DNA of 64,000 nucleotides from the human T2T-CHM13v2.0 reference genome, Homo sapiens. The notes under the pieces were generated by a model, which saw only the letters and a list, made by a program, of their open reading frames with translations, was not told where the DNA came from and did no database searches. This document shows positions 11,184-15,965 of the stretch, one piece after another (the stretch's first letter is position 1; every line of letters starts with the position of its first letter). The stretch lies in assembly GCF_009914755.1 (NCBI RefSeq), contig NC_060947.1. One strand, 5' to 3'. A program made the translations under genes and the position numbers.

Positions 11184-12004
11184 AAATGTGGTACATATAC
11201 ACAATGGATTACTATTCAGCAATAAAAAGGAATGACATCTTTTCATTTGCAACAACATGAATGGAACTGGAGGTCTTTCTGTTAATTAAAATAAGTCAGG
11301 CATGGAAAGACTAACTTCATATGTTGTCACTTATTTGTGGGTGCTAAAAATCAAAACAATTGAACTCATAGAGATCAAGAGTAGGATGGTTACCAGAGGC
11401 TGGAAGGTAATGAGGGTTTGAGGGGAAGTGGAGGTAGTTAATGGGCACACAAACAAAAAAATAGTTAAAGAGTGAATAAGACCTAGTATTTGATAGCACA
11501 GCAGGGTGACTAAATAATAATCATTTAATTGTACATTTTATAATAACTATAATGTTATAATTGGATTTTTAGTAACACAAAGGATAAATCCTTGAGGGGA
11601 TGTATACCCCATTTTCCATGATGTGATTATTACATATTACATGCCTGCATCAAAGCACCTCATGTACCCCATAAATATATACACCAACTATGTACCCACA
11701 AAAATAATGAAACAAAAATAAATAAATAAAAAACAAAAGGGAACTTTTTTTTGAGCATTAAGACTTATTTATCCTTTAATACACAATATTAACTAAAATG
11801 CATGTATAGAACAATAGTTAGATCATCTGAACTAATCTCAGGAGCACAGAACCCTTCTCCCTGCATACTTCCTCCCTGCCGTCCCCACAACCACCCAATG
11901 AATAGTCTGCATTCACTTACGCAACCACTGCTAGGAAGTACTGAAAACAAATGCTTAGAGGGGTGTTACTTTAGCCCTCTACTTTTAAGCTATGTTGTAC
12001 ACCT

Positions 12005-12298
12005 TTTTGCTGTTGTTGTTGAAACGGAGTCTCATTCTGTCGCCAGGCTGGAGTGCAGTGGTGCGATCTCGGCTCACTGCAACCTCCACCTCCCGAGTTC
12101 AAGCGATTCTCCTGCCTCAGCCTCCCAAGTAGCTGGGACTACAGGTGGGTGCCACCACGACCAGCTAATTTTTGTATTTTTAGTAGAGACGGGGTTTCAC
12201 CATGTTGGCCAGGATGGTCTCCATCTCTTGACCTCGTGATCTGCCCGCCTTGGCCTCCCAAAGTGTTGGGATAACTGGCGTGAGCCACTGCACCAGGC
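12005..12298 (-). mobile_element. AluSc inside the NORAD retrocopy
   Basis: Dimeric Alu with Sc-type diagnostics (TCGCCAGGCTGG, ATCTCTTGACCTCGTGATC). Flanks TGTTGTACACCTTTT and TGTTGTGCACTTTT act as a TSD. Confidence 0.88.
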
Positions 12299-12299
12299 T

Positions 12300-15230
12300 G
12301 TTGTGCACTTTTAAACACCTAGAAAGACTAGACGTTTCAAACTGGACTTAAGTTTTCCATTATATACACAGTAGCATTGAATAAATGGTATACATACATA
12401 ACACAGACAGTAATTTGAGTGTCTTCTAAATAGGAACATTCTGGCCTAGAACCCTTCCTTTTCCCACCTCTACCAACCCCGTGGACAGCTATAAGCCATC
12501 TGTAATGCTTAGGGTGGATTTTAACAATTTCACTTCTGTTTTTAAGAAGTCTTCCCTATGAATTTTAACACAAAGTGTACTCAATGCATTAGTTTACTAA
12601 TTCTACTTTTGTCATACACTGGCAACCTCTTTAACATCGACTACATGTAAATTAGGACTCCTATGTCCGCTTATATACACTATATACACAGCACAGTAAA
12701 TGAAAATGCAGACATAAGGGACAATGGTCAATGTGCCTCATCATAAACACAGTGGACACTGGTAGAAAGCCCTTTGCACTTTGTGCTCCTCCTTCCCCCT
12801 GAACCAGCACAAATATCATAATCTGTACTGCTCAGAGAATTGATCAATTTCCAAGACAATATTTCATATCAAAAGGATAGCTACAAAATGTGTTATTTAC
12901 TATCTCTACTTTTAACATACTTTGTGCACTTCTAAACATCTAGAAAGACCAGTTGTTTCAAATAAGGACTTAAGTTTGTCCGCTGTATACACAGTAGTGT
13001 TGAATAAACTACACACGTAACAATAGTTATATCTGAAAGTGTCTTCTAAATAGGAACATTCTGGTATAGAATGCTTCATTCCTTCCAACTCCTCTCCACC
13101 ACCAACCTGGTGGATATAGGCACGTGTCACTTAGAGCTGATGTTATCATTTCACTTCCGAAAGTCCTTTTCAGAAGACAGCCTTTCTATGAATTTTAACG
13201 AAGTGTACAAAATGTGTTAGTTTACTAACCCTACTTCTGTCATACATTGGCAACCTCTTTAATATCTAGAGACTAGATATTATAAAATCGGACTCATTTG
13301 TCCAGTATATACACAATATATAGAGTGTAGCAAAGTTAAATGAAATGCACGTAACATATAGGCAATGGATTAAGCGGAAATTTTCTAATAAACAATGGCA
13401 AAACACCTTTTGCAACTTCTTCCCTCCCACCTCCCAGGTGGTTCAACAATTCCACTTCCAAACAGCATTTCCCATCAGTTTTTAAAAGCTATTTACAAAA
13501 AGTGTTATTCTACTACTTTTAAATACATCAAGCACTTCCAAATATCTAGAAAGACTAGATATTTCATACTTGTCCACCACGTACACAGCACTGTTAAAAT
13601 TACACACACATAACAATGGTTATCATCTGAGGTATCTTCTAAATGTGACCACTTTGGCCTTGAATCATTCCCTCCCCTCTTCCTTCTCTGCCTTCAATCC
13701 AGTGGACAAGTACAGGCACGTGTAATGCTTAGAGATGGTTGAATAAATTCCTATGCAAAAGTCATTTACAGAAGACAAGTTTTCCTATGAATTTCAACAC
13801 AAAGCATACAAAATATGCTAATTTTACTACTTTGTCATACACTGGCAACCTCTTTAATATCTAGAAACTAGATGTTGAAAAATTAGGACTATTTGTCCAT
13901 TATATACACTATATACAGAGCAAAACAAAATGCACAAAACATACAGAAAAATGGTGTCTGGAAATGTTCAAGTATGAACACACTAGTATATTACCTTTTG
14001 CAATTTCTTTCCTCCCACCTCCTCTAAACCACTGAACAAGTATAGACATTACTATACTGTTCACAAAGGTGGCTTCAAAATTCAATTTCCAAAAGTATTT
14101 CCTATGAATTTTAGCAAAAAGATATTTACAAAGTGGTATTTTACTACCTCTACATTTAACATACATCAGGCACTTCTAAACATCTAGATAGACTAGATGT
14201 TTCAAGTAAGGAGTTAATTTGTCCACTATGTACACAGCAGTCTTGAATAAACTGCAAACATGTAACAACAGTTATAATTTGAAAGAGTCTTCCAAATGTG
14301 AACATTCTGGCCTAGAACCCTTCCCATCTCCATCAACCTAGTGGGTAAGAATGCTCAAATTTTCAGAAGACAATCTTTCCTAGGACTTCTAAAACAAAAT
14401 GTACAAAATATATTAGTTTTCCTAGGACTTGTAAAACAAAATGTACAAAATATATTACTCTACTTTTGTCATACACTGGCAACCTCTTTAACATCCAGAA
14501 AGACTAGATGTTGTCAATTAGGAATCGTTTGTCCTTTATGTACACTATATACACAGATAAGTAAAACAAAATGCACAGAGATAATGATTCATCTTGTAAA
14601 AAGGATGGCATAGAGCTCTCTGCACCTCCCCCTCCTCTCTCCTCCCCTGAACCACTGCACAAACACAATGAGTATTACTCCACAGGTGATTTGGCCATTC
14701 CCCTCAAACAAATTTCCTATGAATTGTAACAAAAAGATACTTACAAAATGTGATTTTGCTACCTCTAATTTTAACATATCAGTACTTCAGAACATCTAAA
14801 AAGAACAGACATTTCAAAAAAGCTTAGCATTGTCAACTATGTACACAGTAGTGAGGAATAAAATGCACACAAAACAATGGATAGAATACGAAAATGTCTT
14901 CTAAATATGACCAGTCTAGGAAAGAACCTTCTTCTCTTCCTTCTCAGGTCTTCTAGCTCCTTGTCATCTAACCCACCGAACAAACGTGGACGTATAGCTT
15001 CCAGAGCCCGTCTAACAACTCCATTTCCAAAAGTCATCTCCAGAAGACATGTATTTTCTATTATTTATTTTAAACAAATGAGAATTTACAAGACGTGTGA
15101 CTTTCTAACTCTACTTTATCATACGTCGGCAACCTCTTTCCATCTAGAAGGGCTAGATGTGACAAATGTTTTCTATTAAAAGGTTGGGGTGGAGTTGAGA
15201 GCAGTTTTTTCATATTATATACACAGGCCT
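12300..15230 (-). repeat. NORAD repeat-unit array: five A/B pairs (~600-650 bp period) with hairpins and PUMILIO response elements
   Basis: GGCAACCTCTT at 12621, 13249, 13844, 14478 and 15128. An interleaved CACTTCTAAACATCTAGAAAGACTAGA-like motif at 12306, 12927, 13533, 14171 and 14783. Confidence 0.88.
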
Positions 15231-15339
15231 TCCATAAACGGCCAGTAAATCTTCCCAGAGGGTGGTGGGCATTTCCAACGGGCCAAACGTGGCCTGTCAT
15301 TCTATCATTTCTCTCTTTCGACAGCAAGGTCTGGTAGAA

Positions 15340-15965
15340 CGAAGACCAACCGCCCGATGGCCGCTAACAGTTCCACCCGTCGCCGTCTGGGACTTCGCTC
15401 ACCTACCAGGCCGGTTAAGCCCTTTGTCCGTTGTCTTCAGGACTAGGTAGGTCTCGCCCAATGGCGACAGAGTGGTCACCTGGGACCCGGATCTGCGCGG
15501 CTCCGTGGCCTAAAGAGGCGGCCTAGCCTGCCTGCGTCCCTGGGCCGCTTTCCCGGGCCCTCCACGCCCTAACAGCCTCCGCCGCGCGGCGTTCGAGCGG
15601 CCGCCATGCTTCCCGGCCCTCCACTCCTGCAGCCGCCCAAAGGCGCTGCGTCCCGACAGCTCTGCGGAGGTTTAGCGGAGGCCCGGTAGGCTTGGGCCGG
15701 GGGGGTTCGGGCTGGGAGAGGCCGCCCCCGCCATCAGTCACCGAGGTGGGAGGGGGGGAAGAGAGGTTCGCTGTGGCTTCAAGGCCTGGGCACAGCCAGT
15801 GGGCAGCCACAGCAGAGGCCTCCATCCGGTATCTGCAGGGCAGAGGGCTCAGACTGTCCCGGGGCCCCCCAGTTCACCCGCCGGCCAGGGGCCGGAGGGC
15901 CTGGAGGCCCCTGGAGTAGCAGGCCGCATTCTTCGTCTCTCCGCGCTCTCTGCCGGACCTGAACT
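15340..15965. promoter_or_regulatory. CpG-rich island-like segment (5' head of the NORAD retrocopy)
   Basis: High GC with many intact CpGs (e.g. CCGCCGCGCGGCGTTCGAGCGGCCGCC) in an otherwise AT-rich, CpG-depleted window. Regulatory activity is not shown. Confidence 0.55.

What the first reader, a model, noticed from the sequence alone, without database searches (positions are those of the whole stretch)
11753..15965. Near-complete NORAD lncRNA retrocopy in an L1 desert: a candidate second PUMILIO decoy or NORAD-related RNA
Seen: a 4.2 kb non-TE insert with A-tail, TSD, GC-rich 5' head and periodic repeats, with no credible ORF. Known: NORAD is a ~5.3 kb unspliced cytoplasmic lncRNA that sequesters PUM1/PUM2 through many PREs and supports genome stability. 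NORAD-derived pseudogenes are known as a class (HCG11 is a reported transcribed example), so the class is not new, but I cannot tell whether this copy has been characterised. Inference: it retains the repeat architecture, so any minus-strand transcription would yield a multivalent PUM-binding RNA, while plus-strand read-through from the adjacent L1 would be antisense to NORAD.
Basis: partly seen in the sequence, partly recalled or inferred. Interest (0 to 1): 0.85.

Follow-up and report, generated by a model that had tools for sequence, protein, structure and literature searches.

The report
Dead NORAD retrocopy on chromosome X
This stretch is an old, 3'-shortened processed pseudogene of the lncRNA NORAD that has drifted like neutral DNA; it belongs to a class already reported as numerous and, apart from HCG11, unexpressed, so it is ordinary.

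Summary
Window 11753-15965 (minus strand) aligns end to end with the NORAD locus on contig 20 of the same genome: 94.5% identity over 4141-4146 aligned bases. It starts at the parent's first transcribed base and has no homology to the parent's promoter. It ends in an 8-base A-run and is bracketed by a 17-bp target-site duplication matching at 16 of 17.

It is not near-complete. It holds NORAD nt 1-4243 of 5340 (79%) and stops at a CA 22 nt after an ATTAAA in the parent.

It carries 13 UGUANAUA sites, all on the minus strand. That is 13 of 16 inferred ancestral sites, which equals the neutral expectation of 13.0. Its branch is 1.28 times as long as the parent lineage over the same time, like the HCG11 copy at 1.29, so I see no extra constraint.

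The GC-rich head still passes CpG-island criteria (o/e 0.72) but is more eroded than the parent (0.87) or HCG11 (0.88).

Tichon et al. 2016 report four human NORAD pseudogenes with >90% homology over >4 kb, unexpressed except HCG11. This copy very likely is one of them. Transcription could not be tested here. My verdict is a known kind of low interest.

The parts
11753..15965 (-). Body of the NORAD processed pseudogene, equal to parent transcript nt 1-4243 of 5340
   Evidence: blastn and MAFFT against the contig-20 NORAD locus (L002): 94.5% identity over 4141-4146 aligned bases, colinear, with no flank homology
11745..11752 (-). Remnant poly(A) tail, read as a T-run on the + strand; the first 5 bases overlap the TSD
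11733..11749 (.). Target-site duplication, left copy (ACAAAAGGGAACTTTTT)
   Evidence: 16 of 17 identical to 15967-15983
15967..15983 (.). Target-site duplication, right copy (ACAAAAGTGAACTTTTT). The inferred nick is TTTTT/AT, an L1-endonuclease-type site (consensus recalled, not from a call)
11775..11780 (-). ATTAAA poly(A)-signal variant upstream of the copy's 3' end, also present in the parent 22 nt before the CA where the copy stops
12001..12301 (-). Alu inherited from the parent transcript (NORAD nt 3660-3952), not a later insertion. It accounts for the Rfam SRP, mir-1268 and mir-3135 sub-threshold hits
   Evidence: The same segment is present in NORAD, the contig-12 copy and the HCG11 copy, and absent from the older contig-9 copy.
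12361..15223 (-). Repeat-unit region with 13 UGUANAUA PUMILIO response elements
14376..14457 (-). Private 42-bp tandem duplication (2 copies, 97% matches), absent from the parent and the five other copies aligned
15284..15965 (-). GC-rich 5' head, the transcribed part of the parent's CpG island: 682 bp, 67% GC, 55 CpG, o/e 0.72
9148..11744 (+). 3' part of an older, decayed L1 whose A-rich tail received the insertion
   Evidence: RVT_1 remnant at 9148-9654 scores 28.1 bits against a cut-off of 29.6. The A-rich tail is read directly at 11698-11740. That the 3' end looks like L1 is my own reading

Best explanation
The stretch is a processed pseudogene of the unspliced lncRNA NORAD. The L1 retrotransposition machinery made it by target-primed reverse transcription of a short NORAD RNA. 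That RNA ended at a minor upstream poly(A) site (ATTAAA, then CA at nt 4243). The cDNA was primed at a TTTTT/AT nick in the A-rich tail of an older L1 on chromosome X. The copy brought the transcribed part of the parent's CpG island but not its promoter. Since then it has drifted as neutral DNA: 3.4% private substitutions, several small deletions, one 42-bp duplication, and 3 of 16 ancestral PREs lost. Most likely it does nothing. Origin and decay are shown by the sequence. Silence is inferred from the lack of a promoter, the neutral rate and one published statement.
For: - Colinear match to the contig-20 NORAD locus over the whole insert and nothing beyond it.
- Full-length copies on contigs 12 and 6 define the parent transcript as 5340 nt. 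Five independent copies start within 8 nt of the same base, which is also where the X copy starts.
- TSD matching at 16 of 17, an A-run and a retained ATTAAA.
- The ML tree is a ladder in the order NORAD, c5, c12, X, c6/HCG11, then (c9, c7), with 99-100 bootstrap support. The X tip is 0.0337. The parent lineage since that node is 0.0262. The ratio is 1.28, against 1.29 for HCG11 and 1.48 for the contig-12 copy.
- Polarised counts give 117 X-private and 75 parent-side changes at 4138 sites, with 35 ambiguous.
- PREs: 10 of 14 present-day parent positions are kept. Three further sites are ancestral ones that the parent itself changed. That makes 13 of 16 ancestral sites, against a neutral expectation of 16 x 0.97^7 = 13.0.
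- Head CpG o/e is 0.72, against 0.87 in the parent and 0.88 in HCG11. Private CpG-to-TG/CA losses are 8 of 50 in X and 4 of 47 in HCG11.
- Tichon 2016, passage read: four pseudogenes with >90% homology over >4 kb, not expressed except HCG11.
- The hub's RefSeq table lists no gene and no functional element here.
Against: - The PRE test has almost no power. The parent, which is under selection, kept only 14 of the same 16 sites, so 13 of 16 does not separate neutrality from constraint.
- The head still meets CpG-island criteria after roughly 30-40 Myr.
- Its CpG transition rate is only about 2.4 times the tip rate, not the roughly tenfold I recall for fully methylated CpGs. That ratio is low in all copies (1.0-2.4), and the site choice favours slow sites.
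- HCG11 shows that a NORAD retrocopy can be transcribed.
- The paper gives no coordinates, so equating this copy with one of its four is my inference.
- The proximal poly(A) site is a weak point. Among 33 rows, only this copy stops at nt 4243, while 19 rows including the parent run through it. Tichon 2016 describes a single major poly(A) site.
Confidence: 0.9

Rival explanations
1. The copy is transcribed from the minus strand, driven by its retained CpG-island-like head or a flanking element, at least in some tissue. It would then act as a second multivalent PUMILIO decoy.
For: - 13 sense-strand PREs in the native repeat-unit spacing.
- The head still has CpG o/e 0.72 and 67% GC.
- ATTAAA is retained at the 3' end.
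- HCG11, a sister copy, is expressed at about one twentieth of the NORAD level (Tichon 2016 passage).
Against: - None of the parent's upstream promoter was copied.
- The upstream flank is 32% GC with 2 CpG per kb.
- The branch rate equals that of the other copies and exceeds the parent's.
- CpG erosion in the head is greater than in HCG11.
- The published statement is that such copies do not appear to be expressed.
- RefSeq annotates no gene here (hub table).
- Even HCG11's level is judged negligible next to NORAD in that paper.
Confidence: 0.06
2. Read-through from the adjacent plus-strand L1 yields RNA antisense to NORAD that could pair with and regulate the parent transcript.
For: An L1 3' end in + orientation abuts the insert. 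The insert is 94.5% identical to NORAD, so long antisense pairing would be possible.
Against: - The L1 is decayed. Its longest stop-to-stop frame is 169 aa, and its RT remnant scores below the Pfam cut-off.
- None of the five other + strand frames I scanned between 4675 and 10163 matched a Pfam family, so no ORF1 or endonuclease remnant turned up among them.
- An old L1 fragment is not expected to keep an active 5' promoter (established knowledge, not tested here).
- The L1's own A-rich tail precedes the insert.
Confidence: 0.03
3. The stretch is a DNA-level (segmental) duplicate of the NORAD locus and not a retrocopy.
For: NORAD has no introns, so absence of introns cannot be used as an argument either way.
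Against: - Homology begins at the transcription start shared by five independent copies and stops at an A-run.
- There is no flank homology to contig 20.
- A 17-bp TSD lies at an L1-endonuclease-type site.
Confidence: 0.01

Closest known systems
NORAD (LINC00657), the parent lncRNA on chromosome 20
   Same: The same sequence over nt 1-4243 (94.5% identical), the same GC-rich head, the same internal Alu, the same repeat units of about 300 nt, and 13 PREs against 14 in that span.
   Different: - It lacks the last 1097 nt, including the parent's fifteenth PRE at nt 4599 and the major poly(A) site.
- It lacks the promoter.
- It has 117 private substitutions, private deletions of 17, 16, 8, 33 and 11 nt, and one private duplication.
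- It sits in L1-rich, gene-poor X sequence.
HCG11, the transcribed NORAD retrocopy at contig 6:26.39 Mb (name assigned from the 6p22.2 position given in the PMC13373682 abstract, and from recall)
   Same: Both are L1-type retrocopies of NORAD made after the Alu entered the parent. They are adjacent rungs of the copy ladder, with a similar copy-to-parent rate ratio of 1.29 against 1.28.
   Different: - HCG11 is full length, covering parent nt 1 to about 5340 plus a later insertion of about 300 bp.
- HCG11 keeps head CpG o/e 0.88 with 4 of 47 private CpG transitions. The X copy has 0.72 and 8 of 50.
- HCG11 is reported as expressed. The other copies are not.
The wider set of NORAD processed pseudogenes in the human genome
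   Same: The same origin. By hand I count about 33 separate places, including this copy and the parent. I merged neighbouring rows and dropped rows confined to the Alu segment. One search adds about 9 places that hold only the 3' end. [quoted passage not shown]
   Different: This is one of only four copies that are long and similar enough to match Tichon's '>90% over >4 kb'. It is the only one that ends at parent nt 4243.

Membership tests
L1-mediated processed pseudogene (retrocopy) of NORAD | Colinear homology to the mature parent transcript and none to its flanks | tested here: met
   The alignment covers the insert exactly. The 1500-bp flanks on each side give no match to the NORAD locus.
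L1-mediated processed pseudogene (retrocopy) of NORAD | The 5' end lies at or downstream of the parent's transcription start | tested here: met
   The X copy starts at the base where copies c5 and c7 start, within 2 nt of c12 and 8 nt of c6.
L1-mediated processed pseudogene (retrocopy) of NORAD | Poly(A) tail at the 3' end | tested here: inconclusive
   Only an 8-base A-run remains, and 5 of its bases overlap the TSD. This is compatible with an eroded tail.
L1-mediated processed pseudogene (retrocopy) of NORAD | Target-site duplication at a T-rich/A nick site | tested here: met
   17 bp, 16 of 17 identical, target TTTTT/AT. The L1 endonuclease consensus is recalled.
L1-mediated processed pseudogene (retrocopy) of NORAD | Loss of introns | not testable with these tools
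   The parent is unspliced (Tichon 2016 passage), so this criterion carries no information.
Functional PUMILIO-decoy lncRNA (works like NORAD) | Many PREs on the transcribed strand | tested here: met
   13 UGUANAUA on the minus strand and 0 on the plus strand within the insert.
Functional PUMILIO-decoy lncRNA (works like NORAD) | A promoter and abundant cytoplasmic transcript | not testable with these tools
   No expression data were available. The parent's upstream promoter is absent. Published statement: not expressed.
Functional PUMILIO-decoy lncRNA (works like NORAD) | Purifying selection on the sequence as a whole | tested here: not met
   The tip is 0.0337 against 0.0262 for the parent lineage over the same time. 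The ratio matches those of the other copies.
Functional PUMILIO-decoy lncRNA (works like NORAD) | Purifying selection on the PREs | tested here: inconclusive
   13 of 16 ancestral PREs are kept, against a neutral expectation of 13.0. The parent kept 14 of 16, so the test lacks power.

The most novel reading that the evidence does not exclude
The retrocopied 682-bp head may still behave as a partly unmethylated CpG island and start minus-strand transcription in hypomethylated settings such as germ cells, early embryo or tumours. That would give an X-linked 4.2-kb RNA with 13 PREs that adds to PUMILIO buffering. Multi-mapping reads and map-to-NORAD-first CLIP pipelines would have hidden such an RNA.
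Probability: 0.05. Interest if true: 0.5.

Novelty: already known. Interest (0 to 1): 0.12.

Why it matters
In itself it matters little. It is one more dead copy of a highly expressed lncRNA. Three practical points follow.

1. At 94.5% identity it is a mapping hazard for NORAD RNA-seq, CLIP, probes and guide design. Published pipelines already work around this (Kopp 2019 passage).

2. The retrocopies are dated fossils of the parent. Together they show that human NORAD has itself lost two PREs and moved a third since the X copy was made. They also show that the parent lineage changes at roughly three quarters of the pseudogene rate.

3. If the copy were transcribed, it would be an X-linked PUMILIO sponge. 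Nothing here points that way.

Tried and rejected
- Rfam scan of 10500-17500. It gave only sub-threshold hits caused by the Alu (SRP, mir-1268, mir-3135) plus two chance-level hits. No NORAD family appeared among the matches.
- Tandem Repeats Finder. It does not see the units of about 300 nt because they are too diverged. The repeat finder does see them.
- Pfam on ORFs inside the insert. Nothing was found.
- MAFFT first pulled the copy's A-run 330 nt downstream and so reported coverage to nt 4574. Inspection showed the true end at nt 4243.
- First CpG count with 'ancestral' defined as CG in at least 3 of 7 sequences. This mixed shared and private losses, so I redid it with private losses only.
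- The idea that the proximal end reflects a commonly used poly(A) site. One search shows no other copy ending there, so at most it is a minor site.
- UGURUAUA count. I find 11 in the parent, not the 17 the paper states. I did not resolve the difference and used UGUANAUA throughout.
- Literature searches for a description of this particular copy. The terms were NORAD + pseudogene + HCG11; NORAD + retrocopies; and 'NORAD pseudogene(s)', 'LINC00657 pseudogene', 'NORAD-like'. None names a chromosome-X copy.
- The one supplementary file of Tichon 2016 held as text has no occurrence of 'pseudogene', 'chrX' or 'HCG11'.
- Lee et al. 2016 (Cell) is not held under the id I recalled, so what it says on pseudogenes is unseen.
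Full report
**What is there**

Reading window 11400-16400 shows an insert bounded by two near-identical 17-mers. These are ACAAAAGGGAACTTTTT at 11733-11749 and ACAAAAGTGAACTTTTT at 15967-15983, identical at 16 of 17 positions.

On the + strand the left 17-mer runs into a T-run at 11745-11752. Read on the minus strand, the insert therefore ends in a short A-run.

The right-hand 680 bp are very GC-rich, with up to 73% GC in 300-bp windows. The rest is about 35% GC.

The repeat finder gives 14 direct-repeat families spaced about 300 and about 600-640 bp apart.

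The PUMILIO element TGTANATA occurs 36 times in the 64-kb window, against 12.7 +/- 2.9 expected. Thirteen of those lie in 12361-15223, and all 13 are on the minus strand.

ATG ORFs reach 145 aa at most. The three frames from inside the insert, among the 15 scanned against Pfam, matched nothing.

**Identity**

The window's own genome is held. A search with the insert finds itself at 100%. The next hit is contig 20:37767701-37771940 at 91% over the whole query. Contigs 12 and 6 follow at 90% and 89%, and many partial copies come after.

blastn with 1500-bp flanks shows that the match to the contig-20 locus covers the insert exactly and nothing outside it.

The contig-12 and contig-6 copies align to the contig-20 locus over 5339-5354 bases. 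This defines the parent transcript as about 5340 nt. Tichon et al. 2016 give 5.3 kb for NORAD and describe it as unspliced, with one strong CpG-island promoter and one major poly(A) site (passage). I take contig 20 to be NORAD on that basis and from the recalled chromosome assignment.

In a MAFFT alignment of the parent and six copies, the X copy is 94.5% identical to the parent over 4146 aligned bases. By segment the identity is as follows:

| Parent segment | Identity to NORAD |
|---|---|
| GC-rich head, nt 1-700 | 91.0% |
| Repeat body, nt 701-3660 | 96.2% |
| Internal Alu, nt 3661-3960 | 88.3% |
| Last 283 nt, nt 3961-4243 | 91.6% |

**Boundaries and mode of origin**

The copy starts at the same base as copies c5 and c7. 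That is within 2 nt of c12 and 8 nt of c6, which is what independent copies of RNAs from one transcription start should show. None of the parent's upstream sequence is present.

The copy stops at parent nt 4243, so it holds 79% of NORAD and not nearly all of it.

In the parent that point is a CA lying 22 nt after an ATTAAA, followed by GU/U-rich sequence. This layout is that of a poly(A) site, which is my inference. Among the 33 rows of a genome search across that junction, 19 including the parent run through it and only the X copy stops there. Any such site is therefore a minor one.

The TSD and the inferred nick TTTTT/AT fit L1 target-primed reverse transcription; the endonuclease consensus is recalled. 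The target was the A-rich tail of an older + strand L1. That L1's reverse-transcriptase remnant at 9148-9654 scores 28.1 bits, below the Pfam cut-off of 29.6. A second, minus-strand L1 lies at about 18.2-22.7 kb, with RT, endonuclease and ORF1 remnants. The neighbourhood is L1-rich.

**The internal Alu**

The stretch masked at 12001-12301 is an Alu in the same orientation as the copy. It gives the sub-threshold Rfam hits to SRP RNA, mir-1268 and mir-3135.

It sits at the same place in the parent (nt 3660-3952), the contig-12 copy and the contig-6 copy. It is absent from the older contig-9 copy, which spans the site. It was therefore part of the NORAD RNA when the X copy was made.

**Age and rate**

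An ML tree (GTR+G, 1000 ultrafast bootstraps, supports 99-100) is the ladder expected for copies budding from one evolving parent. The order is NORAD, c5, c12, X, c6, then (c9, c7).

| Lineage | Tip length | Copy-to-parent ratio |
|---|---|---|
| NORAD | 0.0050 | n/a |
| c5 | 0.0123 | not reported |
| c12 | 0.0192 | 1.48 |
| X | 0.0337 | 1.28 |
| c6 (HCG11) | 0.0413 | 1.29 |
| c9 | 0.0597 | not computed |
| c7 | 0.0618 | not computed |

The parent lineage since the X node sums to 0.0262. The X copy has therefore changed 1.28 times as fast as the parent, the same ratio as c6.

Simple polarisation gives 117 X-private changes, 75 parent-side changes and 35 ambiguous at 4138 sites.

I recall about 3% change on the human lineage since the split from Old World monkeys, and less on the X chromosome. 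On that basis a 3.4% tip suggests an insertion some 30-40 Myr ago. This is an inference. No other primate genome was at hand.

**Tests bearing on function**

*(a) PREs.* The parent has 15 UGUANAUA, of which 14 lie in nt 1-4243. The X copy keeps 10 of those 14 positions. It has three more at parent nt 1721, 2048 and 2650. At these the other copies agree with X, so the parent changed: two sites were lost, and one was shifted by 2 nt to 2648.

Against the 16 inferred ancestral sites, X keeps 13. Neutral decay at about 3% per site over 7 fixed positions predicts 13.0. The parent kept 14 of 16, so this test cannot separate drift from selection, and I give it no weight either way.

*(b) Overall rate.* There is no slowdown relative to the other copies.

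*(c) CpG decay in the head.* The X copy's head still passes the usual CpG-island criteria.

| Copy | Head CpG o/e | Private CpG-to-TG/CA losses | Loss rate relative to tip rate |
|---|---|---|---|
| NORAD | 0.87 | not reported | not reported |
| X | 0.72 (55 CpG) | 8 of 50 | about 2.4x |
| HCG11 | 0.88 | 4 of 47 | about 1.0x |
| c7 | 0.91 | not reported | about 1.1x |
| c9 | 0.65 | 12 of 43 | about 2.3x |

The X head has thus eroded more than the one copy known to be expressed. It has eroded less than I would expect for fully methylated DNA. The counts are small, and the site choice favours slow sites.

*(d) Promoter.* None was copied. The upstream flank is 32% GC with 2 CpG per kb.

**What is in print**

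Tichon et al. [quoted passage not shown]'

In one search only four non-parent places are that long. They are this one, contig 12:29.26 Mb, contig 6:26.39 Mb (HCG11 by position) and contig 9:116.17 Mb. Their identities to the parent are 94.5%, 96.9%, 93.1% and 91.2% in my alignment. The contig-9 copy falls to 86.8-91.4% across its three main BLAST pieces.

So this copy is very probably one of the four. The paper gives no coordinates in the text, and the one supplement held as text has none of the words I searched for.

Kopp et al. [quoted passage not shown]

Three searches found no paper describing a chromosome-X copy. Lee et al. 2016 was not available.

**Verdict**

The copy is a 3'-shortened, promoter-less retrocopy evolving at the neutral rate, in a class reported as unexpressed. 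Its PRE array is what drift would leave after this time.

Function as a decoy or antisense source is not excluded, because no transcript, CLIP or methylation data could be consulted. Nothing in the sequence favours it, however. I put it at about 5%.

Noticed in passing
L002 (contig 20 NORAD locus), parent nt 1721, 2048, 2648/2650: The retrocopies act as fossils of the parent. They show that human NORAD itself lost two ancestral UGUANAUA sites by G-to-A change and shifted a third by 2 nt after the X copy was made. The youngest copy (c5) already shares two of these changes.
   Followed up: partly
ML tree of L002-L007 plus window 11745-15965: The parent lineage accumulates change at roughly 70-80% of the rate of its own pseudogenes (copy-to-parent ratios 1.28-1.48). 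This suggests only weak nucleotide-level constraint over most of NORAD nt 1-4243 in primates. The lower mutation rate of the X chromosome was not corrected for.
   Followed up: no
L005 (contig 9:116171560-116177596) versus L002, parent nt 3660-3952: The Alu inside NORAD is absent from the older contig-9 copy. The adjoining query ranges suggest it is also absent from the copies at contig 13:27.76 Mb and contig 4:77.12 Mb. The Alu therefore entered the NORAD transcription unit between the births of the contig-9 and contig-6 copies.
   Followed up: partly
L007 (contig 7:23342461-23344573): This old, 2.1-kb, 3'-truncated copy (tip 0.0618) keeps a head with CpG o/e 0.91 and only 6 of 43 private CpG transitions. 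That resembles HCG11 and differs from the contig-9 copy of similar age. Its head may have stayed unmethylated, so it is a better candidate for a transcribed copy than the X one.
   Followed up: no
window 14376-14457: A private 42-bp tandem duplication (2.0 copies, 97% matches) lies inside a repeat unit. It is a convenient unique tag for this copy.
   Followed up: yes
window 18262-22741, minus strand: A second, better preserved but still broken L1 is present. RVT_1 at 19778-20347 scores 70.5 bits. An endonuclease remnant lies at 21014-21328 and an ORF1 RBD-like domain at 21759-22208.
   Followed up: partly
L002, after parent nt 305: The parent lacks 9 nt that five of the six aligned copies carry (all but c9). 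This points to a small deletion on the NORAD lineage after even the youngest aligned copy, or to an alignment effect in the GC-rich head.
   Followed up: no
contig 23:77685601-77690545: A second, much older NORAD-derived copy lies about 1.7 Mb away on the same chromosome. It is 77-81% identical and interrupted by Alu-sized pieces.
   Followed up: no
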